In this document: piece after piece, positions 21,873 to 51,069 of the stretch | How the letters are laid out: each line of letters starts with the position of its first letter | Position numbering within the stretch: position 1 is the first letter of the stretch | Made by a program: the position numbers and the translations under genes | The notes under the pieces: generated by a model | The model's input: only the letters and a program-made list of their open reading frames with translations | The model's database searches: none | Told to the model about the DNA's origin: nothing | Virus record (IMG/VR): IMGVR_UViG_3300030616_000016 | Span: 70,561-134,560 of that record | Direction: 5' to 3' (one strand) | Length of the DNA stretch: 64,000 nt | Origin: a virus

Positions 21873-23167
21873 TACCCCACGCCTAAAGGCGGGGGCTTCC
21901 TAATTCATCGAAAATTGCGTTCCATACTGGCTACGTCTTACATCTTCTCCAAAGGCTTTAGGTTCCCCTTGCCCAGGGGTACAAAATGCAAAATTCAAAA
22001 TATTACTAGATGCAAGGGCATCTCTATCGTGTTTGGCACCACAAGTGCAAGTCCAATATCTGTCACTTAGCTTAAGATTATTATTTATAGCGCCGCACTG
22101 GTTACACATCTTGCTGGATGGTTCAAATCTTCCTATAGTCAAAACATGCTTTCCATACCAACCTGCCTTATACTCAAGAAAGGTACGAAAAGTATACCAT
22201 CCAACATCAGAGATAGCCTTGGCCAAACAATGATTCTTCACCATTCCAGAAACGTTTAAATCCTCAAGACACACTGCTTGGTTCTCGTCAATGAGCCTTT
22301 TGGACAATTTATGCAAAAAATCTTTACGTTGATTAGAAATCTTCTCATGTATCAACGCTACCTTCCTACGAGCCTTGTTTCTATTTGAAGAACCTTTCTT
22401 CTTCTTTGATAATTGTTTTTGCTTTCTTGCCAATCTTCTTTCAAGTTTCTTTAGGTATCTTGGATTATCTATTTTCTCGCCTGTTGATAGTGTTGCAAAA
22501 TGTTTTAATCCAACGTCAACACCTACACTATTATCTCGTTCAGGATTACATTTGATAGGTAATTCTTCTCCATTGTCAACCAAAATAGAAGCAAAGTATT
22601 TCCCAGAAGGAGCCATGAATATAGTTACAGTTTTAATATTGCCTTCAAATTGTCTATGGAATTTGCATTTGATGCCATCACGGAATTTCATTACATATAG
22701 CCTATTATTATCAAAATCCACATTACTTCCTTGTGGAAATTGACAAGATTGCTTTTTGAATTTCTTCTTAAATTGAGGATATCTTGCCTGTTTCTTAAAA
22801 AACCGCCGGAAAGCATTGTCAAGGTTTCTAAAGGCCATTTGCAAAGATTGACTATTAACTTCCTTCAGCCAACCATGCTCAGATTTCATATGTTTCAATT
22901 GCTTTATCAAATCAAAACAGGAAGGAGATTTCCCCGTTTTTTGATAAGACTCTGTTTTCTTTTGGAGTCCCAAATTGTATATGAACCGTACACAACCAAA
23001 ATGCTTCACAAGAAGCTCCTGTTGTTTTTTGTTGGGGTATATTTTGTATTTATATGCTCGTATCATTATATTTATAGTATAGCACAGGTTTCTGTAAATG
23101 TCAAGAGAAAAACGCATTCTTATATCCCCATGGCTAAAGCCAGGGGTCTTACGAATGCACCTTGATA
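21866..23167 (-). mobile_element. IS200/IS605-family insertion sequence, TnpB-only (IS1341-like), with subterminal hairpin ends
   Basis: Left end (near 23167) TATCAAGGTGCATTCGTAAGACCCCTGGCTTTAGCCATGGGG and right end (near 21866) GCCCCCGCCTTTAGGCGTGGGGTAATGTCAC. Both carry GC-rich hairpins with TTTA loops. The same ends recur at 33634-33883 and 62731-62781. Confidence 0.8.
21900..23117 (-). CDS. tnpB: TnpB (OrfB) RNA-guided nuclease of IS200/IS605 family
   Basis: 405 aa. RuvC-like NQAVCLEDLNVSGMVKN (RuvC-II E), zinc finger CNQCG...CTCG, RuvC-III DRDALASSNILNFA. Confidence 0.85.
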   Translation of the reverse strand: MRFSLDIYRNLCYTINIMIRAYKYKIYPNKKQQELLVKHFGCVRFIYNLGLQKKTESYQKTGKSPSCFDLIKQLKHMKSEHGWLKEVNSQSLQMAFRNLDNAFRRFFKKQARYPQFKKKFKKQSCQFPQGSNVDFDNNRLYVMKFRDGIKCKFHRQFEGNIKTVTIFMAPSGKYFASILVDNGEELPIKCNPERDNSVGVDVGLKHFATLSTGEKIDNPRYLKKLERRLARKQKQLSKKKKGSSNRNKARRKVALIHEKISNQRKDFLHKLSKRLIDENQAVCLEDLNVSGMVKNHCLAKAISDVGWYTFRTFLEYKAGWYGKHVLTIGRFEPSSKMCNQCGAINNNLKLSDRYWTCTCGAKHDRDALASSNILNFAFCTPGQGEPKAFGEDVRRSQYGTQFSMN

Positions 23168-23608: not shown

Positions 23609-24346
23609 TTATCCGAAAATGAAGTTACAGATGTCCTTGCCGATTTCTTTGCGTTCAACAGACGTGTTGTTTGCTTCTTCTCGTGCAAACTTGACTGCTC
23701 TCATAAGAACAGCAATTTTGTCAAGCATTTCTTTCTTACGAGTTGCAGAAATACATGTACTGAGCTTTGTAGTAGTCCAGTAACCGATAATCTCATCGCT
23801 GACTACAAGCTGAGTCTGTGCAGGATGCTTTTCAGTAGCAGCATAAAGAACGATAGGTTTCTCAACCTTACGTGTTTTATGTGTCTGACGCGCGCCTGAT
23901 TTGAACATTCCGGAATCTTCATCACGAGCCCATGTTTCTGCTGGATCCAGTTCAGGAAGTTTCTCGACATATGTTTTAATATCGTTCAGCTGTTTTTCGA
24001 GGTACAGCAAGAATGTGGGAGGGGCGTCTTTTACAATTACTGTGTCGCCAACCTTAATATCTGCTTTTGCAATGGTATTGCCAAAGTCTTTAGTTGCAGT
24101 AACATCAAACAGATCTGCGAGAGATTCCGCTACTTCGTTAATTACATTGTTCAGATTTTCTTGTACCTTTACTGATTCTTCTGGAAAGTTCTCACCTTCT
24201 TCGTCTTTAGGCTCATATACTTTATGAAGGCCATTGAATATTTGTGGTGCATCTGACAAACGATGAGCCTGAGTAATGATAGAATTATGGCGGGATTTTT
24301 CGCCCTTCTCAACTGCAATAATCTGATTAAGTTTAACTTCAGACAT
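23609..24346 (-). CDS. Hypothetical protein, probably highly expressed (strong SD, elevated GC)
   Basis: Preceded by AAGGAGGTAACAA-ATG. Composition is richer in G+C than its neighbours. Confidence 0.55.
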   Translation of the reverse strand: MSEVKLNQIIAVEKGEKSRHNSIITQAHRLSDAPQIFNGLHKVYEPKDEEGENFPEESVKVQENLNNVINEVAESLADLFDVTATKDFGNTIAKADIKVGDTVIVKDAPPTFLLYLEKQLNDIKTYVEKLPELDPAETWARDEDSGMFKSGARQTHKTRKVEKPIVLYAATEKHPAQTQLVVSDEIIGYWTTTKLSTCISATRKKEMLDKIAVLMRAVKFAREEANNTSVERKEIGKDICNFIFG

Positions 24347-24371
24347 TTGTTACCTCCTTCTGTAAGATTTA

Positions 24372-25121
24372 TTATTCAATTATTTCTTTTATTTCTTTTA
24401 TGATACTTTCTTTTGATTTAATTTTTGGTTTTGACTCATGCAATATATTATTAGTACTTTCTTGTATCATATAATCTTCAACTTGGATAGATTTTAATGT
24501 GTCTTTATACAAGTCATCGATTGTTATATCTGAAATATCATTTACACTATCAGAATATGTTGATATCATGTTATTAAATTTTGATTTAAGCTCTACTTGT
24601 TTAGACTTTGCCCTCAGAGAAATGAGCTTAGAATCATATTCATTACATTTCTTTTCATATTCTTTTATCTTATTTTCCCAGCTAATCAGAATTTTTCTTA
24701 AAGAGCTTAGTGTTTCTTTTTTAAGCTTAACTTCTTCTTTCATTTTCTTTAGAACAAGTGACCTAGAATGAATCGTTTCTAGTTCTTTTAGGTTTCGCTC
24801 TACATTTGATTCTTTTAGATTTTTCTTTATGTTACTTGTAACTTCTTGTATATTTTGTTCAAGTCCATAAACTTCTTCTTCCAGAAACTTTATATCTATT
24901 TTTAACTCTATTGCCTGTGATTTACTTACTTTCAAATTACTTTTCAGGTCATCTATAACGACCTCGATTCTATCAATTTTTACATCTGTAGGAATTGATT
25001 TTTCTATCTTCTTAACAGTAGTTTTCTGTGCTGTTTTGACATAGCTTTTAACTCTGCTGTATCCAATAAATACGATTGCTAATATTGTTATTATGGCTAC
25101 GACAACAAGTTTTTTAATCAT
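24372..25121 (-). CDS. Membrane-anchored coiled-coil protein
   Basis: N-terminal TM MIKKLVVVAIITILAIVFIGY followed by a K/E-rich heptad-like sequence. Confidence 0.55.
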   Translation of the reverse strand: MIKKLVVVAIITILAIVFIGYSRVKSYVKTAQKTTVKKIEKSIPTDVKIDRIEVVIDDLKSNLKVSKSQAIELKIDIKFLEEEVYGLEQNIQEVTSNIKKNLKESNVERNLKELETIHSRSLVLKKMKEEVKLKKETLSSLRKILISWENKIKEYEKKCNEYDSKLISLRAKSKQVELKSKFNNMISTYSDSVNDISDITIDDLYKDTLKSIQVEDYMIQESTNNILHESKPKIKSKESIIKEIKEIIE

Positions 25122-26298
25122 TCAATTTCTCCTCTGATTTTGTTGATTTTTGTAGATTATATTGCATTATGTTTTTATCAAATTCTCTAATCTGTGTCTT
25201 CATTTCTTCTGATTCTTTTATAAGTTTGCTATATTTATGTTTGATAATAGCTTTAGAATGTAATAAGCCAATATGTTCAATAAGTTTATTAAATTTGTAA
25301 GCGAATCTAGTAGCTTTTGCTGGAATTTCTGTCAATGCTTCTACTTCTTGATCAGTTAGAGTTGAAGTTTTTAATTTATCAACTCTTGATTTTAATTCAT
25401 TAAGTTTACTTTGTGGTAATTTCAACTTATTTAATTGGTATTTGAAATCATCTTTGAGGAGATCTGCGAACTTTCCTTCTTTTGCTTCAAGTATATTATC
25501 AAAGAATCCTGTACCTTTCTTAGGTTCTTCTTCTATATATTTATCAAATCTAGTTACGGGTTCTTCCGGAGCACTCGCAAGTTCTTTCAGATACTCTGAA
25601 GGCTTAGGTAATGTTTTAGGTTCTTCTGTTGTTATTTTCTGTTGTAATGATCTTATCCACTCAGCACGTCCATCAAACTTGATGCTGTTTAAAGAAATAT
25701 GGTTATAATAATATTCAATAAGACAATCTGTTACATTTTTTAATATTTGTTCTTTTGGCATTTGATATATACAAGTCTTAAGACATTTTTTACTAATACT
25801 TTCCAAAACATTTTCTTTAATGTTTGGATATTCTGCTTTAATGTATTCTTTTATTAATGGAAGTCTTCTTTCAATAAGTTCATTATTTCTAAGATTATTC
25901 ATCATTAATAATATTACGATTGTTAAGCAAGTTCCAAAAATATATGGATTTATTTTGGTCTCAACTTTTGCAGCATCTCCATATAAGCTATGCCATATTA
26001 CAATAAGTTTTCCTGCTTGGATTATTGAATATACAATTAATGGGATAAATAATATGTATCCTAATGCCTCATATGCACTCATATATGGAAGTGTATTTAT
26101 ATTCATTATTGGCATTGGCTCCTTGGTTTGTGGAACATGGACATTGCTAAGTATTGATATAAGAATAAGTACAAACGAGATTATTAGTGCACAAAATAAT
26201 GACTTACTGGTTTGTATGATTTCAGATAAAAGTATTATCAATGCAAGTAATGGTAATCCAATACAAATGATTATTATAATGTATATAAGCACTACCAT
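25114..26298 (-). CDS. Polytopic membrane protein with C-terminal coiled-coil region
   Basis: Several hydrophobic segments in the N-terminal 130 aa, then a K/E-rich region. Confidence 0.55.
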   Translation of the reverse strand: MVVLIYIIIIICIGLPLLALIILLSEIIQTSKSLFCALIISFVLILISILSNVHVPQTKEPMPIMNINTLPYMSAYEALGYILFIPLIVYSIIQAGKLIVIWHSLYGDAAKVETKINPYIFGTCLTIVILLMMNNLRNNELIERRLPLIKEYIKAEYPNIKENVLESISKKCLKTCIYQMPKEQILKNVTDCLIEYYYNHISLNSIKFDGRAEWIRSLQQKITTEEPKTLPKPSEYLKELASAPEEPVTRFDKYIEEEPKKGTGFFDNILEAKEGKFADLLKDDFKYQLNKLKLPQSKLNELKSRVDKLKTSTLTDQEVEALTEIPAKATRFAYKFNKLIEHIGLLHSKAIIKHKYSKLIKESEEMKTQIREFDKNIMQYNLQKSTKSEEKLND

Positions 26299-26300
26299 AA

Positions 26301-27305
26301 TTATCTCATTAAATATAGATTGCGTAGTTCATCTCTATCATAAAACACATTACGGATTTCTTGTCTAATATTATAGTCTTGAAATATTCTATCATAAAAA
26401 CTAGTAGTATCTCCACCAAGAAATTCTATTGCATCATTTATTGGTTGAGTTGTATTATGGTCTGGAGTAATTCCAATTCCTTCTTTCTCGACTCCATATA
26501 TATCATATATAATTCCTGCTGTGTAATTGAATCCATCGCCTCTATAAAACTTATATGCTTGTACGGCTCTAAAAGCACCAAATGTTTTAGAGCCAAATAT
26601 TGTAGCTTCTGAATAGTATTTCATTGCTGAAACAAATATTTCTGCGAATTGAAATGTACAAGCACTCGTAAGTATACACATATTATTTTTATGAAGCCAT
26701 GTATTTTCTGTTTGCACAGACATATCTGCAAAATCACTAAACGCAAATGCTGTATTATTAATTGCTGCAACTAATTCATTAGAATAAGTTTTGTGAGTAA
26801 ATCCAGCAAGCAGTTTTATGTATTCGCCTAATCCGCCATTATTACAATATCTAAGATCGAGAATTAAAGAATTGCATTCGAATTCATACATGTAATGGTT
26901 GACATTAAGCATAACAGTTTCTGCCATTCCAGCAGACATTTTATCTACAGATATATATAATATATCTGGTTCAATTTTATATATTTTTAATGTTCCTGAT
27001 GCTTCATTATCTGATATGGCTGCTTCCATTTCTTCGCTGTTTATATACCTTGTATATAAATCTGTTTCAGAACGGAGTCTATTTATATATGATTCTAAAG
27101 TATCTGAAGTTAAAGGTGGTTGAACGTTTCCATAAATATAGCCTTGTGATAATACCGAATATGCTTCTTGTAGATATTCTTCATCTACGTTTGTAATTTG
27201 ATTTTCTGTATTTGGATTGCTACTATTTCCTCCTCCTCCACAGCCATTACAAAATATAATTATGATACATAATATGAACAAATTAATTTTGATATTTTTT
27301 ATCAA
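26301..27305 (-). CDS. Lipoprotein, S41 (C-terminal processing peptidase)-like domain
   Basis: Signal and lipobox LFILCIIIIFCNGCGGGG. CILTSACTFQFAEIFVSAMKYYSEATIFGSKTFGAFRAVQ aligns with the S41 LVNxxSASASEIFAGALQD...GxxTFGKG region but with a non-canonical Ser motif. Confidence 0.45.
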   Translation of the reverse strand: MIKNIKINLFILCIIIIFCNGCGGGGNSSNPNTENQITNVDEEYLQEAYSVLSQGYIYGNVQPPLTSDTLESYINRLRSETDLYTRYINSEEMEAAISDNEASGTLKIYKIEPDILYISVDKMSAGMAETVMLNVNHYMYEFECNSLILDLRYCNNGGLGEYIKLLAGFTHKTYSNELVAAINNTAFAFSDFADMSVQTENTWLHKNNMCILTSACTFQFAEIFVSAMKYYSEATIFGSKTFGAFRAVQAYKFYRGDGFNYTAGIIYDIYGVEKEGIGITPDHNTTQPINDAIEFLGGDTTSFYDRIFQDYNIRQEIRNVFYDRDELRNLYLMR

Positions 27306-27428
27306 GACTACCTCTTTCTGTTTAATAATGGTTGTAATGAATAGGAAAGTCTCTGGTAAGGCAAAAGGATGAAGAGCACGAGGGCTCTTTGGGGGAAGTC
27401 GAAAATTCTCACCAGAGACGGGATATAT

Positions 27429-28220
27429 TTAGAAATCAGTTGATTTTGCGGTTCTCATACCGCGAGCCATCATTTCTTTCACAAAGTCTTCTCCAAGACT
27501 TTCGAAGGTCGCTACATTTGAAGTTGTATCTTCAATTAATACAAACTTCTTAATATTCTCATCGCCGAAGTTATCAGCAATGTCTCTTACTGTATTTGCA
27601 ACACAGTGTGACAGAGCTTCTCCAGTTATGAGAATATCGTCTGCTTCCAGTAGGCTATCAAGAAGATTGCCATTAAGTCTTGTAGTAGGGTCAGACGGGT
27701 CTTCTACATCGGCTTTTACTGCTGAGTAGTGTTCTGTAAAAGGATTAGACCCTTTAGTAACATAGTCAATCATAGCAAACTGATTTTCCCACTCAGTTAT
27801 TGCTTCGAACACATTAGCATCGATTGAATGTCCTTGCGAACCAATAAGACAATGTGGCCGCCAGATGCAGAGAACATATCTGCCATTGTCTTCAAGTGTT
27901 TTTGTATAATCTGAAGCTTTCTGTTGAAGAGCTGGGTTATAGGAATGCCAGACACCATTTTTTACATCATCATGGGATATTACTGTAAATGGGTTTGGAT
28001 GTTTACCATCTTTATCAACCCAGAATATAGGATGTGCAATATGAATGGTTCTGTGAGAATCCATTGTAATATGGATATCATCTAATCCGTCTTTCATTCT
28101 GTTGACCATTTCTGCAAGACGTTTCATATCCTCATCTGCTCTAGGAACAACTAGGGCTCCTTTTGGATTACAGAAGTCATATTGAGGATCAATAGCAAGA
28201 AGATGAGTTTTCTTGTTCAT
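27429..28220 (-). CDS. Isochorismatase-family hydrolase, nicotinamidase (PncA)-like
   Basis: LLAIDPQYDFCNPKGALVV (LLVIDMQNDF-type), IHITMDSH, RPHCLIGSQG (catalytic Cys region). Confidence 0.7.
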   Translation of the reverse strand: MNKKTHLLAIDPQYDFCNPKGALVVPRADEDMKRLAEMVNRMKDGLDDIHITMDSHRTIHIAHPIFWVDKDGKHPNPFTVISHDDVKNGVWHSYNPALQQKASDYTKTLEDNGRYVLCIWRPHCLIGSQGHSIDANVFEAITEWENQFAMIDYVTKGSNPFTEHYSAVKADVEDPSDPTTRLNGNLLDSLLEADDILITGEALSHCVANTVRDIADNFGDENIKKFVLIEDTTSNVATFESLGEDFVKEMMARGMRTAKSTDF

Positions 28221-28239: not shown

Positions 28240-29895
28240 TTATTTTTTAATACTGATAGAGAACATTTCTTTATCCTCTGTAAAGTATACACTGGTACCA
28301 TCAGTGTATAGTGGCATTGATGAGTCTATCGGCGGATTAGTAATAATGCGTTTTTGATTATCTTTAGAGATCTCAATCTTTTGATCGCTAAATACATCAA
28401 TGCAAACTCCATTATTAAGAACAATGAAATTGATATTATCAACATCGCGCTCTTCTTTGTCTAGCAGAATACCTTTATTTTCTTTGCTGCATAGTTTGAA
28501 TCGGAATCTATAATATTTACCAGATTCTTCTGCTATGCATACTAGAATTCCTCTGCTATGTTTTGCATTGATTATTCTAAGTCCATGGAGTTCCTCAATA
28601 GGACCTAGAAAACTACCAGAATCTTCTAATGGCGCATATGCCCAACATTTGTCTAGGAAGTTGCTAATTACTACTCCACTAAACATTTGATTCATAGTAC
28701 CAAGATTTTGGGATGGATTCGAGCATGCCGCGCTCTTATTCCCCATATTTTTTGCATATACCTCATATACTGAGGCGCCGTTTCTGCAAAATATACTACC
28801 ATTGTATATCATGGCTTTGTCTGCGGCAAATTTACCTGGTATATCCGTTTCTATTTCTACACAGCCATTATCAATTATGCCTAACACAGGGTCAGGAGAT
28901 AGATTGCATAGAAATGCCTTTTTATTGGATATATCCTTAAATATGGATTTACCACAGTATATTGCCTTATCCGTAAATGTATAGAAAATACCATTTAGGA
29001 ATTGTATTGATTTAATCGGCTCATTGTACTTATACATTGATTTAATGTCAAAATTTGCTGTGCTTCTTATAGTCTTTTGAACCATAGCTATATTAATTGT
29101 AGCGTCAGGTTTAGGTGGAGCGCTGCGTTTATTCTCAATGAATATTGACTTAAACCACTCCATATGAGCTTTAGGAATAACTGAGAAGTCTTGACATACG
29201 GATGGAATGGTAACCTTACTATCAAATACGGATATACCATCATCCATTCGCTTAGTAAATTCTCTTGGTTTATAGTCTGGGTGTTTACCCTTATAAGGAT
29301 GGATACCAACATAAAGCTGAAATGCTATTACTGCAAACGAGAACCAATCGCTTAGTTCTGTGAACTTTTTGGCTAAGCGGTCTCTTATTGAATCCATAAT
29401 AGCATTAGCTGGAAATGACTTTGTCTGATAACTGTCAACGTCAATAAAGTAAGGTACTTTATGACCTTTGTCTATCAGAAAGTTCATTTCATTCATATCT
29501 ACTATCAGGCATTGTTTAGAATGAATGTGCTCGACCGTGTCTTGTATATTGCGCACAATTTCTAATACTTGATTAGGAGATATATTATTATCTTTTCTGT
29601 ACTGCTTAGTAAAGAGCTTGCATAGAGCACTTGTCTCTTTAATATACTTCATTGTATATCCGATGACATTGCTTGTCTTTTTATCGCAAACAATATCTTC
29701 CGGTTTGATAACATTGCCGGCTGTTATATAGCCAAGCTCTTCAATCTTTCTTAATGGTATCATATGCTTGATATCATTATAAATCTTGAAGGCAATATTG
29801 TCTTTTTTATATACAGAACCTTGACCACCAGATGCAATAAAATCATTGTCTTTCAGGTCAAATGAAGCCTTTGTTCTATTTACAATGACTCTCAT
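28240..29895 (-). CDS. Ser/Thr protein kinase-like domain protein with large C-terminal domain
   Basis: Gly-rich loop SGGQGSVYKK with IAFKIY (VAIK Lys), catalytic-loop-like LIVDMNEMNFLI, DFG-like IDVDS. C-terminal ~280 aa unassigned. Confidence 0.65.
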   Translation of the reverse strand: MRVIVNRTKASFDLKDNDFIASGGQGSVYKKDNIAFKIYNDIKHMIPLRKIEELGYITAGNVIKPEDIVCDKKTSNVIGYTMKYIKETSALCKLFTKQYRKDNNISPNQVLEIVRNIQDTVEHIHSKQCLIVDMNEMNFLIDKGHKVPYFIDVDSYQTKSFPANAIMDSIRDRLAKKFTELSDWFSFAVIAFQLYVGIHPYKGKHPDYKPREFTKRMDDGISVFDSKVTIPSVCQDFSVIPKAHMEWFKSIFIENKRSAPPKPDATINIAMVQKTIRSTANFDIKSMYKYNEPIKSIQFLNGIFYTFTDKAIYCGKSIFKDISNKKAFLCNLSPDPVLGIIDNGCVEIETDIPGKFAADKAMIYNGSIFCRNGASVYEVYAKNMGNKSAACSNPSQNLGTMNQMFSGVVISNFLDKCWAYAPLEDSGSFLGPIEELHGLRIINAKHSRGILVCIAEESGKYYRFRFKLCSKENKGILLDKEERDVDNINFIVLNNGVCIDVFSDQKIEISKDNQKRIITNPPIDSSMPLYTDGTSVYFTEDKEMFSISIKK

Positions 29896-30731
29896 GGCTT
29901 ATCCTTAAGCAGTGTAGCACATGCTATATCATCAAAGTGCTTATTGTTTATTTTGGAATCCATGATGCGTATTTTCTTCATTCTTCTTTTTACAAACTCT
30001 CCTTTGAAGGTTTTATATACAGTCATTCGTATAGCGTTATCAAGCACACTTGTATTTTCAAAAGAGCTTATACCATCAGTGAACAGGCTTATGCTCATTC
30101 CTTCTGCCATTGGCGCACTAGACATTATGTATGGCTCGAACATGGGGATTGTAGAGCTCTTAAAGTCTTCGTCTGGGTTATATGACAATACTGTTTTTTC
30201 TGGATTGCCCAATATATCCATAGTATTCATATAGTCTTTAATCTTTTCATCTTCCATGCGATATGCAAGATAGTATGGCATGTTAGATGTATATGATATT
30301 TCTTCAATACGAATCCATGGATTTGGGTCATTCGCTCTATCAAAACCATCATTAAAGACAACTACTCCATCTCCCCATACTGCTATGCCAAATCCCTCAT
30401 TATTGGCTATTACTACCATAAGCGTGGCATAGAATGTCTGGATGTCAAGACAAAGAGCTATTGCTACTTTTGATAGCGCTCCCAACACTTTATTTTCAAA
30501 TGAACAAAGAGCAGTTGATAATGTCTTGTGTCCAAACATAACTATTGAGCTTCTTAATGCTTGTTCTGCAGCAATTCCAAGTATTTTTGCACCAAGGTCT
30601 GTGTTTTGTGCAGAAGAACAGCCGTCACAGACGATACCATAGGAATAACCATAGATATCGCCTGTGATAGCATAATCTTCACACATATCATGACTGGCAC
30701 CAATTTCTACAAAACTATCTTTCTGTATCAT
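29892..30731 (-). CDS. PP2C-family (PPM) Ser/Thr phosphatase
   Basis: GIVCDGCSSAQNTDLGAK (PP2C metal-binding region F-G-V-x-DGHGG-like) and FTDGIS (DG motif). Confidence 0.6.
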   Translation of the reverse strand: MIQKDSFVEIGASHDMCEDYAITGDIYGYSYGIVCDGCSSAQNTDLGAKILGIAAEQALRSSIVMFGHKTLSTALCSFENKVLGALSKVAIALCLDIQTFYATLMVVIANNEGFGIAVWGDGVVVFNDGFDRANDPNPWIRIEEISYTSNMPYYLAYRMEDEKIKDYMNTMDILGNPEKTVLSYNPDEDFKSSTIPMFEPYIMSSAPMAEGMSISLFTDGISSFENTSVLDNAIRMTVYKTFKGEFVKRRMKKIRIMDSKINNKHFDDIACATLLKDKP

Positions 30732-30747
30732 TGGTACTCCCAGTCAT

Positions 30748-31497
30748 TTAGAAGTTAAGAATTGAAGATGCCGAGCCGGATCCAAGAGACTGTGATTGTG
30801 AGGATATGCTTTGACTCACAAATTCAGCCAGCTTTGCAAGCTTGGATGGAGTAGCTTCTCCGACAGATACGTATTTATCAAGGTTTGCATTATCCTTGAA
30901 TGTAGTCAAGAAATTCTTGACTGCAGGATCTTTATCAATCCCGATAAGAACCGTAATAATTGATTCGAGGCTTTCTTCTCTTGTGATATCATCTACTAAC
31001 GTAGCAACTTGTACTGGCGCATTATTTGATTGATTATCAGCGCCATCTGTAATGATAAATACAATTGCATTTGTTAGGAGATCTACTTTATCATACATCT
31101 GCTTGCTATACTGATGTGTTGCTTCGATGCCTTCATATGTTGCATCAAATAATGCAGTTGTACCGCCTGTACGGATGATATTAGAGTATTCATCATCACT
31201 AATATCACTTAGGAGGCGGAAACCATGCATTTCGTTCAGATTAGCATTGAATGTAGTGAAGCGAACCATTAAGTTTTCTGCACGTGGAGACTTTTTGCAT
31301 GATTCGATTACAGTTTTCAGCATATCCTCAATATCATCTTTGTATGGAGACACTGAAGAAGATACGTCGATAATAATTGAAACGAGTGTATATTCAGAAG
31401 CACCTAGTTCATCAAGCTTTACAGCACTGAATCTGAAGTTTGATGCAGTCTGCATACTGGTTATGTTTGCAAGATCTTTATCCATTAATCTTGGCAT
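30748..31497 (-). CDS. von Willebrand factor A (vWA) domain protein, TerY-like
   Basis: MIDAS motif VSIIIDVSSSVSP (D-x-S-x-S), downstream T and D residues consistent with vWA. Confidence 0.7.
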   Translation of the reverse strand: MPRLMDKDLANITSMQTASNFRFSAVKLDELGASEYTLVSIIIDVSSSVSPYKDDIEDMLKTVIESCKKSPRAENLMVRFTTFNANLNEMHGFRLLSDISDDEYSNIIRTGGTTALFDATYEGIEATHQYSKQMYDKVDLLTNAIVFIITDGADNQSNNAPVQVATLVDDITREESLESIITVLIGIDKDPAVKNFLTTFKDNANLDKYVSVGEATPSKLAKLAEFVSQSISSQSQSLGSGSASSILNF

Positions 31498-31499
31498 GG

Positions 31500-32486
31500 T
31501 TATTTCCTTTCTTTGTTAAGCCTGTTTCCTTCTCCTAAATGCATAAGGGGAAGCGGTTTAGGGCTATCACCATTTAGGAAGTATACCTTGGTAGCCGGGT
31601 CTTTTGTAATTGTACCTAGTGCTTTAAGTGCTTCAAGCTGGATATATGCAGGATTATTTGCAATAGCATCGTTAACTTTCTGAATTTCATATGCTTTTGC
31701 GTCTGCAAGGATCTTCTGTTTTTCTGCTGAAAGCATTGCGGCGTCTTTATCTGCCTGAGCAGTTTTAACTTTCTTCTGCTGTTCAGTCTCAAACCTGCGC
31801 AACTCTGCTTTCTCACGTTCAGCTTCCTGCTCGCGTTTCTTCTTACTCTCAACACCTTGCTGGATTGTGTTGGGAAGTTGAATATTTCTAATGAGAACAG
31901 CTTCAACATCAAGGCCCTTTGGTGCAACGTATTCTTTAATTGAAGTAAGAAGATTTGCCTGCATCTTTTGCTGAATTTCTTCCCTAAAGAATGACTCTGC
32001 AGTTTTCACACTTTTACCTTGTTCTCGCAATAAGCTTCGGAACTTGGGTAACATGTGTACTTCCATAAGGTCTTTAGGATTACCGGTTTCTTGCAGAATG
32101 TCTGGAGCCATAGACTTGATAATTCGATACTGACAGCTTACATCGAATGTCGTAACAAGCTGGTCCATACTTGGGATGGGAACCTGGCTCATTGTAATAC
32201 TTTTCTGACGACAATCGAATTCTTCCCAATCATACAAAGGATTGGTAAGGTGAATGCCTGCTTCATAGGGCTGATCAACGACTTTACCAAAGAATGTAGC
32301 TACTCCAATATGTCCTGGAGGTATTGAGATAACACATGAAGCGATGAGAGTAATAGCGCCGACGGCTCCTACCAGTAGACCGCCAAGAATATAAGGACGC
32401 CTTTTTTCTTCTGATTTAGCCATAAGACCATATACAAACACCAACAAACCGATTAATGCAATTATAATACCAAGAGCAAGTATCAT
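31500..32486 (-). CDS. SPFH/band-7 (stomatin/prohibitin/HflKC) membrane protein
   Basis: N-terminal TM, then IPPGHIGVATFFGKV and an extended E/K/A-rich coiled region typical of SPFH proteins. Confidence 0.75.
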   Translation of the reverse strand: MILALGIIIALIGLLVFVYGLMAKSEEKRRPYILGGLLVGAVGAITLIASCVISIPPGHIGVATFFGKVVDQPYEAGIHLTNPLYDWEEFDCRQKSITMSQVPIPSMDQLVTTFDVSCQYRIIKSMAPDILQETGNPKDLMEVHMLPKFRSLLREQGKSVKTAESFFREEIQQKMQANLLTSIKEYVAPKGLDVEAVLIRNIQLPNTIQQGVESKKKREQEAEREKAELRRFETEQQKKVKTAQADKDAAMLSAEKQKILADAKAYEIQKVNDAIANNPAYIQLEALKALGTITKDPATKVYFLNGDSPKPLPLMHLGEGNRLNKERK

Positions 32487-32508: not shown

Positions 32509-32646
32509 TTACTTTTTAGTATATATACCAATGAAACCATTCCACTGGTAATTTTTGTACTTAATACCACAAATGAATCCAAACAATAGTGTAGATAGAA
32601 CAACAAAGCCTATCATTATTAAAGTAGCTTTTGCTAATTGTTTCAT
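32509..32646 (-). CDS. Small single-TM protein (45 aa), not in supplied ORF track
   Basis: MKQLAKATLIMIGFVVLSTLLFGFICGIKYKNYQWNGFIGIYTKK, directly downstream of the SPFH gene. Confidence 0.25.
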   Translation of the reverse strand: MKQLAKATLIMIGFVVLSTLLFGFICGIKYKNYQWNGFIGIYTKK

Positions 32647-32921
32647 TCTACACCTCTATAATAAGTAAGTTTCCGTATAGCAGCCAACTCCTGGGGAAAT
32701 CGACATTAGGAAAGCATGTCGACTAACTATATGTCTCCATATAGAACAGGTGAAACGTTGGTTTCTCGATTAACTTTCACCTTTCAGCTGTCAACTTTCA
32801 AATCCTGAACTTTGAATTTTAAAGTTTGAGCTTTGAAGGGCTAAGTTTAGTTCGTATTATGAGTACGATACGTAATTCCTATTTTCTTTTCTCCCTCTTC
32901 GCTATGGAAAACTTATTGTAT

Positions 32922-33887: not shown

Positions 33888-35558
33888 TTAGTTTATAAGG
33901 CAAAACAGATACTTCTGAATTCTGTCACTGCCTGTTGCATATTCGTCTATCAGGCGATATAAGAGCTTGTCCCAGCCTTTAGATAGCATCAACTGCATTA
34001 CAGTGATGTATATCCTTGTTCCAGACCTCTTACCACTATTTGCATATATTCCATCATCAGATAGCTTACGACTGCATGCATGAGTATTTGTCTGGTGGCT
34101 GAACTTATCTAATACTATCCAGAACACTTTCCCAGACCATGCCTCAACTGTCTGTCCGTTATAAGTATGCTTTTGTGGCTTGCATTCTTTTATAAGAGCA
34201 GATGGTATATTCCCATCTTCTCCTTCTAGAAAGTGAGGAACGGGCGCCGGCCCTGATTCCTCTGCAATATTATTAAGCATAGCTTCTACTATCTGACCTG
34301 GATTCCTACGCTTTAGAGTTGCAAGAGCGTTGGTTACCACTTCTGCTGGTTTGCCATCTATCTTAGGCATTTGCTCGTCTGGTATAATATTTACTATACC
34401 TTTATTACCGTGACGATTTGTAATTTTGTCGCCACTTCTGAGAATATGAAATCTCTCGTATTCGACAATAAGTTTTGTACAAACTGTGTTTGCTACTTTT
34501 GTTCTTATCTCACTGATATTAGACAGTTTAGCTTCACGCTTGACATGACATTTAAGCGTGATTGTTTCTTCTCCATCAGAATAAGAACCAATTATCTGAT
34601 TTGGTCTTACAATGTCTCCGGCTTTGGCTTCCATCTTTAGGCTTTGTTTGCACCATCCTGGTACTACGAATGTCTGTTTCTCAGGAATGACACATGTCAT
34701 TTTTCTAGCTGCTGACTTACTCATAACAATCTGTTCTTTGTATACACCAGGCATGATTGCATGAACTGTAAGTAAGTGCTTGCCATTAAGATTGTTATCA
34801 TAATCTTCTGGAAACACCATAGGTTTATCTGGACTAACTAGCTTGCTGGAAGCCTTGAAATTAGATGCAGTGGTTCTGCGGCGATTATATTCTGGTACAA
34901 TAAGATTCTTATTGAGTATATCGCAATAAACCCGACCTCTTTTGGTGAAGCATCCAATATCGTTTATTTTGCATTCTTCAGCCATGTACATTGTGCGACC
35001 ACAATTCCCCGATGACTGACTTATACTTGTCCAATCAAGAATGCCTTCTGTATTGAATGGCATAAATTCATCCGTTCGTTCTTGAAATAGCTCTAATGAT
35101 ATTTTGGGTCCATAGTGAGTAGCTATTCCCTTTACGACATGAGATAATCTTGAAGTTTTAAGTAAATTATCGAGCTTCATTTGAGCTGTGGTAGAATCTT
35201 CTTGATGTCCGAACATAAAGAAGTCTGACAGTTGTGTAGCATATGCTTGCTTAATGAATTTAAGAAGAAGCTCGTATGGTGTTGATAAATATGTGTGATT
35301 AATATTCATACATCTGTTATTAAAGATTGGCATTGGATTAAGTGTATAGCATAATTGCCGGCTTATTCCATTTACAGAAAACATACCCTTGTTATCAATC
35401 TTAGGTATATTTAGTTTTACGACTGTTTGCATGCTCTGGGATGCCTCTTTAACAAGCATTTTTGTATGAAATAGGTCATCATATTCTTCTATATGACAGT
35501 CAACAGGCAAACAATTACATATAGGAAACAATCTTGCAAGATGAGACTTATTCATCAT
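33888..35558 (-). CDS. Multisubunit RNA polymerase beta-subunit-like protein (C-terminal half homolog)
   Basis: SGDKITNRHGNKGIVNII matches beta region GDK-x-AGRHGNKGV. AIMPGVY...QIVMSKSA resembles the beta AVMPWxGYNFEDAI region. Confidence 0.7.
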   Translation of the reverse strand: MMNKSHLARLFPICNCLPVDCHIEEYDDLFHTKMLVKEASQSMQTVVKLNIPKIDNKGMFSVNGISRQLCYTLNPMPIFNNRCMNINHTYLSTPYELLLKFIKQAYATQLSDFFMFGHQEDSTTAQMKLDNLLKTSRLSHVVKGIATHYGPKISLELFQERTDEFMPFNTEGILDWTSISQSSGNCGRTMYMAEECKINDIGCFTKRGRVYCDILNKNLIVPEYNRRRTTASNFKASSKLVSPDKPMVFPEDYDNNLNGKHLLTVHAIMPGVYKEQIVMSKSAARKMTCVIPEKQTFVVPGWCKQSLKMEAKAGDIVRPNQIIGSYSDGEETITLKCHVKREAKLSNISEIRTKVANTVCTKLIVEYERFHILRSGDKITNRHGNKGIVNIIPDEQMPKIDGKPAEVVTNALATLKRRNPGQIVEAMLNNIAEESGPAPVPHFLEGEDGNIPSALIKECKPQKHTYNGQTVEAWSGKVFWIVLDKFSHQTNTHACSRKLSDDGIYANSGKRSGTRIYITVMQLMLSKGWDKLLYRLIDEYATGSDRIQKYLFCLIN

Positions 35559-37074
35559 TATCTTTCTCCAATACTAGGACTCTGTCCCTGAGATACTTGA
35601 TGAGTTGATTTTTGTCTTCGTTATTCAGTACATTCATGATGTGTTCTATGGCTAGAGTATAGAAAGCGTCGCCTTCTACCATGCTTAGTCTAGGATCAAA
35701 CACTGCATAGAATATAGAATTCTCTGCGTCTACTATATCATTAATTAACTTAGGGTTATCCCTATTATATAGTAGATTAAGATATGGCTCGACTTGTTCT
35801 ACGTCTATCTCACAATCTTTAAGTATTTCGCGAGCTACGTTTATGTCGCTAATACCATCATTTTTAAGTACTTTAATGAGACTGACATATGATTCATCAA
35901 GTTTATGTTTAGAATCAAATAGGCGCTGGTTTGCTTGTTCTGATAGCTTATCTGCAGCTTTGGCTATTTCTATATTGCCATCTGCCAATACTCTTGCACG
36001 ACATGCTGCGGCTCCAGCCTTGCCAATCTCTGATTTCTGGAGAATGAGGCCTTTTGCAACCTTGATGTCGTCTTCTCGTATTTCAGATAAGGACTTGCCT
36101 TTAAAGAATCCTGTAAGGTCCTTAACGTCAATGTCTTCTGCATTACACATGGCTTTTATTGTCTCAGAATTTTCTGTGTCAATAAGGTCATGTGGTCCAA
36201 TTACTCTGAATTTTGAGATTCTTTTTACACCATCATCTATTATGTTTTCCAAGTCAGGGGTTTCTTCTTGATTATCGATAAGAAACTCTTTGTCCCACTT
36301 TGTTGTGGACCAGTCTTCTTCTATATCAATATCAGGATACCCAAGTACTGTTTCAATTAGATCTCCATCGGAATCAGCACCCATGCCATCAGTAATAATG
36401 GGATGAATAATGATCCTGTTGGATTTAGTAGGAAGTATGTATAACTTGCGCATAGAATCGTTGTGTAGCAAGGGATTTCTGAATGCAATTACATAAGGCT
36501 TCCCTTCTGTATTGGACTCTTCTTTCCTTTCTTTCCACTTTTCTATGAACTTGACATATATATGCTGAGGTAATTTTATGTGGTCATAAGGCATTCTGAA
36601 GTCGGTAGCAATATGGCCTTTACCAGAATATAATGCTCTGAAACCAAGGATATATGTATTAAACAATCCTGATTTACCGACCAGCTCTTTAGCCATTATT
36701 TTCCATACTCTTTCAGCACTATCTTCCACTACTTCTGTGTCAATATTGCCAATACCAAGTTGGCTAATTGACACAAGTAGTTTTTCTGTAGCGATTTGTA
36801 TATCATTTAATACTATGTGCCCGGCTACTGGTCCTGGCATATTCATATTAGGGATTATTACTTTTTGAACCTTCTTGCCGAAGTAATTATTTATTTCAAT
36901 CGGCAAGTGTACATACCCGCCATACTGAAGTACATCTTCATCAAGTATGGTGTTTTTGAGGTTCTTATTAAGTAAATCCGGTTTTGAAATGATCGCTTTT
37001 GTTGTATTCGAAAATAGATTTCTTCGTATCTGTATATTACCACACTGTTTCGATAAACTCGTCAGATTCATCAT
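35548..37074 (-). CDS. Multisubunit RNA polymerase beta-prime-like protein (N-terminal part with catalytic loop)
   Basis: AFRNPLLHNDSMRKLYIL...IIIHPIITDGMGADSDGD parallels the beta-prime LNRQPTLHRLGIQAF...IQLHPLVCAAFNADFDGD region. Confidence 0.65.
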   Translation of the reverse strand: MMNLTSLSKQCGNIQIRRNLFSNTTKAIISKPDLLNKNLKNTILDEDVLQYGGYVHLPIEINNYFGKKVQKVIIPNMNMPGPVAGHIVLNDIQIATEKLLVSISQLGIGNIDTEVVEDSAERVWKIMAKELVGKSGLFNTYILGFRALYSGKGHIATDFRMPYDHIKLPQHIYVKFIEKWKERKEESNTEGKPYVIAFRNPLLHNDSMRKLYILPTKSNRIIIHPIITDGMGADSDGDLIETVLGYPDIDIEEDWSTTKWDKEFLIDNQEETPDLENIIDDGVKRISKFRVIGPHDLIDTENSETIKAMCNAEDIDVKDLTGFFKGKSLSEIREDDIKVAKGLILQKSEIGKAGAAACRARVLADGNIEIAKAADKLSEQANQRLFDSKHKLDESYVSLIKVLKNDGISDINVAREILKDCEIDVEQVEPYLNLLYNRDNPKLINDIVDAENSIFYAVFDPRLSMVEGDAFYTLAIEHIMNVLNNEDKNQLIKYLRDRVLVLEKDNDE

Positions 37075-50295: not shown

Positions 50296-51069
50296 TTACT
50301 CCCTTTCTAGACAGAATGTCTCCATCATGTGATTTTGAACTCCTCTGTATTGCCATTGAAAAGTACAATTGACTCCCTTAATCTTAGGAAACTCTCCAAC
50401 ATTTCTATCTTGTATTTTGCTATTTCTTGAGTCACTCTGAATAGTTATGAAAATTAACTTACAATCGCTTTTGTTCACGAGATGTTTGACTGAAGATATT
50501 CTTTGATGCGTTAGTGGACCATTATAATCTAAGTGTGCTACATCAATGTCTATACGACTACATTTCTTGAGAAATGAATCGACATTCTGGTTTATCAGTT
50601 TTACATCCTTACTTAGCTTGCTCTTTATCGAGTTTTCGCAGATTGTATATATACTGTTTTTCGCCTCAAAGGCTAGAATGTTGTATGTATCTACTCCAAC
50701 CATGTTATTAATTATTACTAATTCAGTTCCTAGGTATGGTAGACATAGAAATTTGATGCTTCTTAGTCCTTTTGAGTGAATAATATTGCCTATGCTAGTA
50801 ATGCTATACCGCTTACCTATTGTGGCATATTTATCATTATTAGCGTCAATATTATTCTTTTTCTTAATGATTGGAAGGTTGGTTCTAACTTTTGTTTTGA
50901 TGTTATGCAAATGTGTCTCAACAGTTCTTGGCTTTATATCAAGCTTAGCTGATATTTGAGGAATAGAAAGACCACGCATGAATAGATCAACATGTTCTTT
51001 TTCTCTCTTTGTAAACAAATGCTTTTTATTAGAGACATCTGACGGCAAATGAACTTTTGTCCTATTCAT
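50296..51069 (-). CDS. LuxR/GerE-family HTH transcriptional regulator with C-terminal unknown domain
   Basis: LFMRGLSIPQISAKLDIKPRTVETHLHNIKTKV matches the LuxR-type HTH. Confidence 0.55.
   Translation of the reverse strand: MNRTKVHLPSDVSNKKHLFTKREKEHVDLFMRGLSIPQISAKLDIKPRTVETHLHNIKTKVRTNLPIIKKKNNIDANNDKYATIGKRYSITSIGNIIHSKGLRSIKFLCLPYLGTELVIINNMVGVDTYNILAFEAKNSIYTICENSIKSKLSKDVKLINQNVDSFLKKCSRIDIDVAHLDYNGPLTHQRISSVKHLVNKSDCKLIFITIQSDSRNSKIQDRNVGEFPKIKGVNCTFQWQYRGVQNHMMETFCLERE

What the first reader, a model, noticed from the sequence alone, without database searches (positions are those of the whole stretch)
28240..32486. TerY-P-like triad (vWA, PP2C phosphatase, Ser/Thr kinase) preceded by an SPFH/band-7 membrane protein, encoded by the phage
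Transcription order on the - strand is SPFH (31500-32486), then vWA with MIDAS DxSxS (30748-31497), then PP2C-like (29892-30731), then protein kinase-like with an extra 280-aa C-terminal domain (28240-29895). The genes are tightly abutted or overlap by a few nt. vWA, then PP2C, then STK is the gene order of the TerY-phosphorylation triad described by Anantharaman, Iyer and Aravind and listed as an antiphage defence type. Finding it inside a viral genome, fused in an operon with a flotillin-like SPFH scaffold, suggests a virus-deployed signalling, superinfection-exclusion or counter-defence module. The upstream 270-bp non-coding region (32650-32920) carries four CTTT(C/G)AA half-sites that could be its operator.
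Basis: partly seen in the sequence, partly recalled or inferred. Interest (0 to 1): 0.8.

Follow-up and report, generated by a model that had tools for sequence, protein, structure and literature searches.

The report
Nicotinamidase-linked vWA/PP2C/kinase module in huge phage
The vWA–phosphatase–kinase trio is real, but its conserved partner is a nicotinamidase (first enzyme of NAD+ salvage) just outside the reported coordinates, not the SPFH protein, and this four-gene set recurs in hundreds of huge phages and in some bacterial chromosomes, apparently undescribed.

Summary
All four ORFs exist exactly as reported, and their domains hold up: SPFH; a vWA with an invariant MIDAS; PP2C; and a Ser/Thr kinase whose extra C-terminal domain is a β-propeller. 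The trio is homologous to the E. coli YegL/PphC/YegI (TerY-P-type) cluster. The SPFH link is incidental: SPFH is absent from 86/86 related loci and from the closest relatives. The true fourth member is the next gene downstream (27429-28220), a PncA-type nicotinamidase with intact catalytic and metal sites. PncA, vWA, PP2C and the kinase co-occur in about 90-95% of loci whichever gene seeds the search, and PncA–vWA is the tightest pair. PncB, NadD, NadE and the ADP-ribose-responsive repressor NrtR are frequent neighbours, and the window has PncB 11.5 kb away. The same cluster sits in native, non-prophage contexts in bacterial chromosomes. Best reading: a TerY-P-like phospho-switch coupled to nicotinamide-to-NAD+ salvage, which huge phages use to sustain or rebuild NAD+. 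The regulatory mechanism is inferred, not shown. No description was found in the searchable literature; the original TerY-P paper could not be read.

The parts
30748..31497 (-). TerY/YegL-like vWA protein (249 aa) with a complete MIDAS (D44-x-S46-x-S48, T114, D151) and an invariant Ser-rich C-terminal helix (residues 217-240)
29892..30731 (-). PP2C-family Ser/Thr phosphatase (279 aa). Metal-binding Asp residues are invariant across the family (D19, D36, D121, D219, D267/D268). Overlaps the kinase start by 4 nt.
28240..29895 (-). YegI-like Ser/Thr kinase (residues 1-~270; G23/G24, K37, E53, D133, N138, D152 conserved) fused to a C-terminal β-propeller (~282-549)
27429..28220 (-). PncA-type nicotinamidase (263 aa): catalytic D11/K156/C206 and metal ligands D54/H56/H123 are invariant. 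This is the conserved fourth member of the module and lies outside the finding's coordinates.
31500..32486 (-). SPFH/Band-7 membrane protein (328 aa). Probably co-transcribed here, but not a conserved part of the module.
32509..32646 (-). 45-aa hydrophobic small ORF with a Shine-Dalgarno sequence, immediately upstream of the SPFH gene
32774..32837 (-). Cluster of five direct NT(C/G)AAAG repeats (three exact CTTTSAA on the + strand). Unique in the window; possible regulatory site; function unknown.
27372..27389 (-). Terminator-like hairpin with a T-rich tail directly after the nicotinamidase gene; likely end of the transcription unit
44039..45196 (-). Nicotinate phosphoribosyltransferase PncB, the next enzyme of the Preiss-Handler pathway. 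It is often inside or beside the module in relatives; here it is 11.5 kb away, next to an IS110-like transposase gene.

Best explanation
The unit is a four-gene module: a PncA nicotinamidase, a TerY/YegL-like vWA protein, a PP2C phosphatase and a YegI-like Ser/Thr kinase with a β-propeller. It couples a reversible phosphorylation switch to the first step of nicotinamide-to-NAD+ (Preiss-Handler) salvage.

Shown:
- All four genes are intact, with catalytic and ligand-binding residues conserved.
- They are co-oriented and tightly packed, and a terminator-like hairpin follows them.
- They travel together in huge phages and in some bacteria, often with PncB, NadD, NadE and the ADP-ribose-sensing repressor NrtR.

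Inferred:
- PncA converts nicotinamide, the product of NAD+-cleaving enzymes, into nicotinate.
- PncB (present in the window), together with NadD and NadE (phage or host), turns nicotinate back into NAD+.
- The kinase uses its β-propeller as a sensor or docking domain, and the PP2C opposes it. Together they set the phosphorylation state of a target.
- The most likely target is the invariant Ser-rich C-terminal helix of the vWA protein and/or PncA itself. The vWA MIDAS site would then bind or release its partner and so gate nicotinamidase activity.
- In the phage, this would keep NAD+ available during infection and blunt NAD+-depleting host defences.

Rough likelihoods: about 0.6 that the module functions in NAD+/nicotinamide metabolism; about 0.25 for the specific 'vWA gates PncA' mechanism.
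For: Linkage:
- vWA-seeded loci: PncA 84/86, PP2C 77/86, kinase 77/86 within ±10 kb. All other window neighbours, including SPFH, 0/86.
- De novo clustering gives the same four families on top (72-77 of 87 loci), then a drop to 32 or fewer.
- PncA-seeded viral loci with adequate flanks: vWA 61/64, PP2C 60/64, kinase 60/64.
- PncA-vWA is the tightest pair: immediately adjacent in 42/66 loci, median gap 47 bp, against 25/69 and 24/73 for the other pairs.

Enzyme identity:
- The PncA profile's best PDB hits are nicotinamidases (yeast Pnc1, E=2.3e-15), and the triad and metal site are invariant.

NAD context:
- The next-ranked neighbours are NAPRTase (32 loci), NUDIX (28), NAD synthase (23) and NadD-like (12). 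41/87 loci have at least one of PncB/NadE/NadD, sometimes between module genes.
- The window's PncB passes NCBIfam cut-offs (438 against 379 bits).
- An NrtR-like gene lies directly upstream of PncA in 29/80 cellular loci and is present in 10/157 viral loci.
- The cluster PncA-vWA-PP2C-STK-PncB is flanked by leuA/leuB and other housekeeping genes in complete Capsulimonadaceae chromosomes, and sits in cellular contexts in two other phyla.

Switch components:
- Kinase catalytic residues are invariant. S155 aligns with a mapped YegI activation-loop autophosphorylation site (bioRxiv 10.1101/819920).
- PP2C metal ligands are invariant.
- The vWA MIDAS and the Ser-rich helix are invariant.

Literature:
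- Jumbo phages are reported to carry pncB-nadD-nadE clusters and pncA (PMC11662467).
- Phage NAD+ reconstitution is an established counter-defence (abstracts listed; PMC13464706).
Against: - No experiment links the triad to PncA; the coupling is inferred from gene neighbourhood only.
- In this window, the otherwise tight PncA-vWA adjacency is broken (order vWA-PP2C-STK-PncA).
- NadD, NadE and Nudix genes were not found in the 64-kb window.
- Only about half of related loci have further NAD genes within ±10 kb, so the triad+PncA core may have a role not limited to NAD+ synthesis.
- TerY-P triads elsewhere act as antiphage defence with no known NAD link (PMC11090510).
- The substrate of the PncA-like enzyme is assigned by homology and could be another amide.
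- The target of the kinase is unknown, as it is for E. coli YegI.
Confidence: 0.55

Rival explanations
1. The triad is a phage-borne TerY-P antiphage system used for superinfection exclusion against competing phages. PncA would be an accessory or effector, for example removing nicotinamide or altering NAD metabolism to the competitor's cost.
For: TerY-P-like modules are reported as stand-alone antiphage systems (PMC11090510). All three components are homologous to the E. coli YegL/PphC/YegI triad. The kinase weakly matches defence-kinase models (mad6, PD-T4-6). The cluster also occurs in bacterial chromosomes.
Against: There is no match to the PADLOC TerY model, although the E. coli control shows that model is narrow. 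The kinase's C-terminal domain is a β-propeller, not the OB-fold or Zn-ribbon of described TerY-P kinases. Neighbours are NAD-biosynthesis genes and NrtR, not defence-island genes. The module is conserved across hundreds of very diverse huge phages, which fits a core infection function better than an accessory exclusion gene.
Confidence: 0.15
2. One reading: an SPFH/flotillin scaffold organises the vWA/PP2C/kinase triad at the membrane as a five-part signalling or exclusion complex specific to this phage.
For: The SPFH stop codon and the vWA start are 2 nt apart on the same strand. A small TM ORF and a unique repeat cluster precede SPFH. E. coli YegI is itself a membrane protein.
Against: SPFH is absent from 86/86 related loci, from the closest relatives with 68-71% identical vWA, and from the cellular versions. 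The nearest phage SPFH homologue has none of these neighbours. The kinase model shows no membrane segment. SPFH belongs to a common phage family (phrog_200).
Confidence: 0.05
3. The kinase and phosphatase remodel host or phage proteins generally during takeover, as known phage protein kinases do. The vWA and PncA proteins are functionally independent genes that merely hitch-hike in the same early or metabolic gene block.
For: In many loci unrelated ORFs are inserted between vWA, PP2C and the kinase (median gaps 421-497 bp). Gene order is permuted in several loci, including the window.
Against: Reciprocal co-occurrence is about 90-95% across phages with GC from 22% to 68%. The same four genes are contiguous in bacterial chromosomes with entirely different flanks. 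Hitch-hiking would not survive that much divergence and transfer.
Confidence: 0.12

Closest known systems
TerY-P triad (Anantharaman, Iyer & Aravind 2012; Gao et al. 2020), as summarised in PMC11090510
   Same: Three genes in the order vWA (TerY-like, MIDAS) -> PP2C phosphatase -> Ser/Thr kinase carrying an extra C-terminal domain. Proposed to act as a phosphorylation-dependent switch.
   Different: The kinase's C-terminal domain is a β-propeller, not a Zn-ribbon or OB-fold. A PncA nicotinamidase is an almost obligatory fourth gene. Neighbours are NAD+ salvage genes and NrtR rather than restriction or Ter genes. No hit to the PADLOC TerY model. Carried mainly by huge phages.
E. coli yegL-pphC-(yegJ)-yegI cluster (bioRxiv 10.1101/819920 and 10.1101/303594)
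   Same: Kinase domain BLASTP E=2e-11, sharing the unusual D-x-N-x-x-N-F catalytic loop and D-x-D-S-[FY]-Q in place of DFG. vWA profile hhalign E=2.7e-5. Both vWA proteins have a Ser-rich C-terminal motif. The PP2C/kinase genes overlap by 4 nt here and (ATGA) in some E. coli strains. Both PP2Cs look like the PP2C_2 type (only the phage one was scanned).
   Different: [quoted passage not shown] There is no nicotinamidase in the E. coli locus. PP2C similarity is not significant pairwise (E=0.096).
Preiss-Handler NAD+ gene clusters of 'NAD-jumbo phages' (PMC11662467)
   Same: Large phages encoding pncB, nadD, nadE and pncA, physically clustered. Proposed to give the phage its own NAD+ supply.
   Different: That study does not mention any kinase, phosphatase or vWA protein. 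Here the nicotinamidase is linked more tightly to the phospho-switch triad than to the other pathway enzymes.
Phage NAD+ reconstitution pathways NARP1, NARP2, NARP3 (bioRxiv 10.1101/2024.02.11.579819; PMC13464706)
   Same: Phage-encoded routes that rebuild NAD+ from breakdown products or precursors to overcome NAD+-depleting defences. The proposed role here is analogous.
   Different: Different enzymes: Adps/Namat, NamPT/Nmnat and PnuC/NadR, against PncA/PncB(/NadD/NadE) here. No dedicated signalling proteins are described for the NARPs. Function here is untested.
Archaeal ArnA/ArnB (FHA-vWA) phospho-regulated complex (PDB 8s05 among the fold hits; biology from my own knowledge)
   Same: A cytoplasmic vWA protein whose interactions are controlled by Ser/Thr kinases and a phosphatase. 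It serves as a precedent for a phosphorylation-gated vWA adaptor.
   Different: Different partners (FHA protein, archaellum regulation). No enzyme such as PncA is attached. Only fold-level similarity.

Membership tests
TerY-P triad | TerY-like vWA protein with a MIDAS metal site | tested here: met
   vWA fold. D44/S46/S48/T114/D151 conserved. 11/31 family members hit PF00092. hhalign to E. coli YegL E=2.7e-5, probability 74%.
TerY-P triad | PP2C-like phosphatase encoded next to the vWA gene | tested here: met
   PP2C_2 40.1 bits against a cut-off of 24. Invariant metal-binding Asp residues. Profile hits Stp1 structures at 4e-4. 16-nt gap after the vWA gene.
TerY-P triad | Ser/Thr kinase encoded after the phosphatase | tested here: met
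   Pkinase 30.1 bits, just under the 31.7 cut-off. Kinase fold. Invariant K37/E53/D133/N138/D152. BLASTP 2e-11 to YegI. 4-nt overlap with the PP2C gene.
TerY-P triad | Kinase fused at its C-terminus to a zinc ribbon (CoCoNuT-linked) or an OB-fold (Gao 2020 defence type) | tested here: not met
   The C-terminal 270 residues are an all-β propeller that matches Nup133, PROPPIN and CNH propellers and the LRRK2 kinase-WD40 region.
TerY-P triad | Recognition by defence-system HMMs (PADLOC TerY-P models) | tested here: inconclusive
   No TerY hit for the vWA or PP2C proteins even at E<=10. The E. coli positive control is barely recognised (YegL 0.032; PphC none; YegI only PD-T4-6), so the models are too narrow to decide.
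TerY-P triad | Confers antiphage defence | not testable with these tools
   Needs expression and phage challenge.
Preiss-Handler NAD+ salvage (PncA-PncB-NadD-NadE) | Nicotinamidase with a Asp-Lys-Cys triad and an Asp-His-His metal site | tested here: met
   D11/K156/C206 and D54/H56/H123 are invariant in 37 sequences. Best PDB hits are all nicotinamidases; Pnc1 2.3e-15.
Preiss-Handler NAD+ salvage (PncA-PncB-NadD-NadE) | Nicotinate phosphoribosyltransferase present | tested here: met
   Window 44039-45196: NAPRTase 9e-57. NCBIfam 438 bits against a cut-off of 379. PncB lies within ±10 kb of the module in 32/87 loci.
Preiss-Handler NAD+ salvage (PncA-PncB-NadD-NadE) | NaMN adenylyltransferase (NadD) and NAD synthetase (NadE) present | tested here: not met
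   Family HMMs find neither in the 64-kb window. They are present near the module in 12 and 23 of 87 related loci. The remaining ~168 kb of the contig could not be examined.
SPFH/NfeD membrane-scaffold operon | SPFH/Band-7 domain protein | tested here: met
   Band_7 2.7e-24; phrog_200 2.7e-55.
SPFH/NfeD membrane-scaffold operon | Adjacent NfeD-type partner | not tested
   Only a 45-aa hydrophobic ORF precedes the SPFH gene. It was not scanned against profiles and looks too short for a full NfeD protein.

The most novel reading that the evidence does not exclude
The vWA/PP2C/kinase-propeller triad is a dedicated sensor-switch. It would detect NAD+ cleavage (for example through nicotinamide, ADP-ribose or a protein signal bound by the propeller) and turn on a phage-encoded Preiss-Handler NAD+ reconstitution route by phospho-controlled release or activation of PncA. 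That would make it a regulated, fourth kind of phage NAD+ counter-defence, and the first TerY-P-type triad with a defined enzymatic output.
Probability: 0.2. Interest if true: 0.85.

Novelty: new variant of a known kind. Interest (0 to 1): 0.6.

Why it matters
TerY-P-type triads are widespread and one form is a validated antiphage system, yet what they sense and what they control is unknown. E. coli YegI, for example, still has no known substrate. Here a branch of that family is almost always tied to one enzyme with an easily assayed activity, nicotinamidase. It sits in an NAD+ salvage neighbourhood that in bacteria includes the ADP-ribose sensor NrtR. That gives a concrete, testable output for the switch.

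It also bears on phage NAD+ reconstitution as a counter to NAD+-depleting immunity. Hundreds of uncultured huge phages from very different hosts appear to carry a Preiss-Handler entry step bundled with its own signalling proteins. The three described NARP pathways have nothing like this. The shared phage and bacterial distribution also documents exchange of a metabolic-plus-regulatory cassette between huge phages and their hosts.

Tried and rejected
- **PADLOC TerY-P models:** no hits. The E. coli YegL/PphC/YegI control shows the models are too narrow, so this is not used as evidence against homology.
- **vWA by sequence against the PDB:** neither the window protein nor the family profile gave a vWA hit. 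Only the fold search did.
- **Single-sequence locus search in viral contigs:** found nothing. The alignment-based search was needed.
- **DNA-level search of GenBank phages:** one weak 300-bp match. No cultured phage carries the module.
- **SPFH as part of the system:** rejected.
- **The module inserted into a conserved SPFH/S41/PspA membrane cluster:** rejected. The related SPFH locus has none of those genes.
- **The repeat cluster as a general phage promoter motif:** rejected. It occurs only once in the window. Sigma-70-like promoter matches are not enriched (42 against 35±5).
- **The 'cellular' copies as mis-binned phage or prophage:** rejected for at least L179, L206 and L165, which have housekeeping flanks. 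It may still hold for many short MAG contigs.
- **Not possible:** the afdb50 fold library was unavailable. The original TerY-P paper (PMC4104200) is not held.

Full report
**1. The observation.**
The four ORFs are at exactly the stated coordinates on the minus strand. Reading the coordinates gives a 2-nt SPFH/vWA gap, a 16-nt vWA/PP2C gap and a 4-nt PP2C/kinase overlap.
- SPFH is clear: Band_7 E=2.7e-24 and phrog_200 E=2.7e-55.
- PP2C passes Pfam's cut-off (PP2C_2, 40.1 against 24 bits).
- The kinase is just under the cut-off (Pkinase 30.1 against 31.7 bits).
- The vWA candidate has no Pfam hit of its own.

I therefore built families. The vWA protein has 1,139 relatives. In a 31-member alignment, the MIDAS residues D44, S48, T114 and D151 are invariant and S46 nearly so. 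Eleven of the 31 members hit PF00092. The AlphaFold model (pLDDT 88.9, pTM 0.88) matches only vWA/integrin I-domains in the PDB.

The kinase has 1,677 relatives, almost all about 560 aa and covering the full length. G23/G24, E53, D133, N138 and D152 are invariant and K37 is nearly so. The model (pLDDT 88.2) has an N-terminal kinase fold and a C-terminal all-β domain. That domain matches β-propellers (Nup133, Hsv2, CNH), and the top full-length hit is the LRRK2 kinase-WD40 region.

**2. Phage origin.**
- The window's contig is about 231.6 kb.
- Nearly all substantial ORFs are on one strand.
- The window encodes split RNAP β/β′-like proteins, helicases and a UvsX-like recombinase.
- DNA and protein searches of GenBank phages find only three uncultured 462-595 kb phage genomes with the module, and no cultured phage.
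- The RNAP β-like gene has only remote matches to jumbo-phage RNAPs.

**3. What the conserved unit really is.**
Contexts of vWA homologues first showed a recurring ~264-aa 'isochorismatase-like' gene and no SPFH. I then measured this systematically with 80 IMG/VR loci plus six others.

| Window protein | Loci with a match within ±10 kb (of 86) |
|---|---|
| 27429-28220 protein | 84 |
| PP2C | 77 |
| Kinase | 77 |
| SPFH | 0 |
| S41 peptidase, PspA-like, 394-aa membrane protein, DUF7873, RNAP genes | 0 |

- De novo clustering of all ORFs gives the same four families on top (72-77 of 87 loci), then a drop to 32 or fewer.
- The usual order is PncA→vWA→PP2C→kinase, and the window's order is a circular permutation of it.
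- Seeding instead with the 27429-28220 family gives vWA 61/64, PP2C 60/64 and kinase 60/64 in viral loci with adequate flanks.
- PncA-vWA is the tightest pair: adjacent in 42/66 loci with a median gap of 47 bp.
- The closest relatives (vWA 68-71% identical) have the canonical order and no SPFH.
- The one related phage SPFH gene has none of these neighbours.
- In the window the PncA-like gene starts 19 nt after the kinase stop and is followed by a terminator-like hairpin. The likely transcription unit is therefore small ORF-SPFH-vWA-PP2C-kinase-PncA.

**4. Identity of the fourth gene and the wider context.**
The family profile's best PDB matches are all nicotinamidases (yeast Pnc1 E=2.3e-15, M. 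tuberculosis PncA and others). The catalytic D11/K156/C206 and metal ligands D54/H56/H123 are invariant.

The next most frequent neighbours are NAPRTase/PncB (32 loci), NUDIX (28), NAD synthase (23) and NadD-like adenylyltransferase (12). They sometimes lie between module genes. At least one of PncB, NadE or NadD is within ±10 kb in 41 of 87 loci.

The window has a genuine PncB at 44039-45196, beside an IS110-like transposase gene. It has no NadD, NadE or Nudix gene.

**5. Not only viral.**
The PncA-like family has at least 577 matches in genome assemblies, mostly MAGs. In three complete 4-6 Mb Capsulimonadaceae chromosomes the order is PncA-vWA-PP2C-kinase-PncB. In L179 the flanks are LeuA, LeuB, a serpin, a PAS histidine kinase and an MFS transporter. 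A Pyrinomonadaceae locus and a Deltaproteobacteria-MAG locus also have cellular flanks.

In 29 of 80 such loci, an NrtR-like gene lies directly upstream of PncA. NrtR is the ADP-ribose-responsive NAD-regulon repressor; the match is full-length at E=2.5e-48. Ten of 157 viral loci also have one.

In a neighbour-joining tree of concatenated PncA+vWA+kinase, 32 Armatimonadota and Acidobacteriota loci form one block nested among far more diverse viral sequences. The window groups with viral ones. This implies phage-host exchange. The direction is unresolved.

**6. Relation to TerY-P.**
TerY-P is defined as a TerY-like vWA protein, a PP2C and a Ser/Thr kinase fused to a Zn-ribbon or an OB-fold. OB-fold versions act as antiphage systems (PMC11090510).

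PADLOC gives no TerY hit, but the same library barely recognises E. coli YegL and misses PphC. That negative result therefore carries little weight.

Direct comparison with E. coli yegL-pphC-yegI:
- Kinase: BLASTP E=2e-11, with shared unusual motifs. This is far better than any kinase of known structure (best E=0.003).
- vWA: hhalign E=2.7e-5.
- PP2C: not significant.
- YegL also has a Ser-rich C-terminal motif.

YegI is an active kinase that autophosphorylates on activation-loop serines, and its substrates are unknown. The phage kinase's S155 aligns with one of those sites.

The module is therefore a TerY-P-like triad, but with a different kinase C-terminal domain and an added enzyme.

**7. 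Mechanism.**
- *Shown:* intact active sites, tight co-orientation, reciprocal co-occurrence, and the NAD-salvage/NrtR neighbourhood.
- *Inferred:* PncA feeds nicotinamide into Preiss-Handler salvage. The kinase/PP2C pair sets a phosphorylation state, most plausibly on the vWA Ser-rich helix or on PncA. The vWA MIDAS site then gates PncA. In phages this would sustain or rebuild NAD+.

Phage Preiss-Handler clusters and phage pncA are reported (PMC11662467), as are the NARP1-3 counter-defences. None involves signalling proteins.

**8. Novelty.**
Full-text searches found no paper combining nicotinamidase/PncA with vWA and PP2C or a kinase. The jumbo-phage comparative paper mentions no PP2C, TerY or isochorismatase. 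One uncultured-phage UniProt entry shares the kinase-propeller architecture, with only an automatic name. The original 2012 TerY-P paper could not be read, so prior mention there cannot be excluded.

**9. The upstream region.**
There are three exact CTTT(C/G)AA sites plus two CTTTCA near-copies, reading as NT(C/G)AAAG direct repeats on the coding strand. They lie at 32774-32837. The cluster is unique in the window and is reached in 0 of 500 simulations. Its function is unknown.

**Verdict.**
The real finding is a conserved nicotinamidase-linked TerY-P-like module shared by huge phages and some bacteria.

Noticed in passing
window 32509-32646 (-): Unannotated 45-aa hydrophobic ORF (MKQLAKATLIMIGFVVLSTLLFGFICGIKYKNYQWNGFIGIYTKK) with a GAGGTG Shine-Dalgarno sequence, directly upstream of the SPFH gene. 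It could be a small membrane partner of SPFH.
   Followed up: partly
window 23609-27305 (-): Downstream block of envelope-related genes: an S41 C-terminal-processing-peptidase-like protein (Peptidase_S41 3.9e-16) whose N-terminus looks lipoprotein-like by eye, a 394-aa multi-pass membrane protein, a weak PspA/IM30-like coiled-coil protein, and DUF7873 (8e-90). None co-occurs with the module elsewhere.
   Followed up: partly
window 33888-37074 (-): Adjacent genes with short matches to RNA polymerase beta (5e-14 range) and beta' (weak). These look like split multisubunit RNAP genes of the jumbo-phage type and are only remotely related to those of PBS1-like and other jumbo phages.
   Followed up: partly
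window 43010-44020 (-) and 21900-23117 (-): Two mobile-element genes inside the phage genome: an IS110-family-like transposase right next to PncB, and a 405-aa transposase (phrog_506, 1.5e-133). They may explain why PncB is separated from PncA and why the module order is permuted here.
   Followed up: no
window 878-3107 (-): A polymerase/reverse-transcriptase-like protein (phrog_2825 4e-31; phrog_1423 'reverse transcriptase' 4e-11) next to a UvsX-like recombinase.
   Followed up: no
window 50296-51069 (-): 257-aa protein with a LuxR/GerE and sigma-70 region-4-like HTH; a possible phage transcription factor.
   Followed up: no
L004 (508-kb contig JBINOA010003471.1), locus 1-2546 and 12958-16744: Near the module in this very large contig are a 968-aa protein with a weak Cas12f/TnpB-like hit, an NMNAT-like cytidylyltransferase (353 aa) and a WGR-PARP protein. 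This is a further link between the module and NAD+/ADP-ribose biology.
   Followed up: no
L072/L073, L023, L029, L032, L101, L144, L147, L058, L027 (viral loci): NrtR-like (Nudix + wHTH, ADP-ribose-responsive repressor) genes occur near the module in about 10 viral loci. Phage-encoded NrtR would be a notable regulator to look at.
   Followed up: partly
L178 (contig DAOUVJ010000012.1, binned as Promethearchaeota) and loci from Beggiatoa/Thiomargarita MAGs (L170, L242): The module appears on contigs binned to an Asgard archaeon and to giant sulfur bacteria, with low GC (L178: 0.28). These may be mis-binned huge-phage contigs or hints to the hosts.
   Followed up: no
L001 (LR756511.1, 595-kb phage): In this curated huge-phage genome the module genes are spread over about 12 kb (kinase, PP2C, vWA, then PncA outside the fetched stretch) with several inserted ORFs. 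This shows the module tolerates insertions while staying co-oriented.
   Followed up: partly
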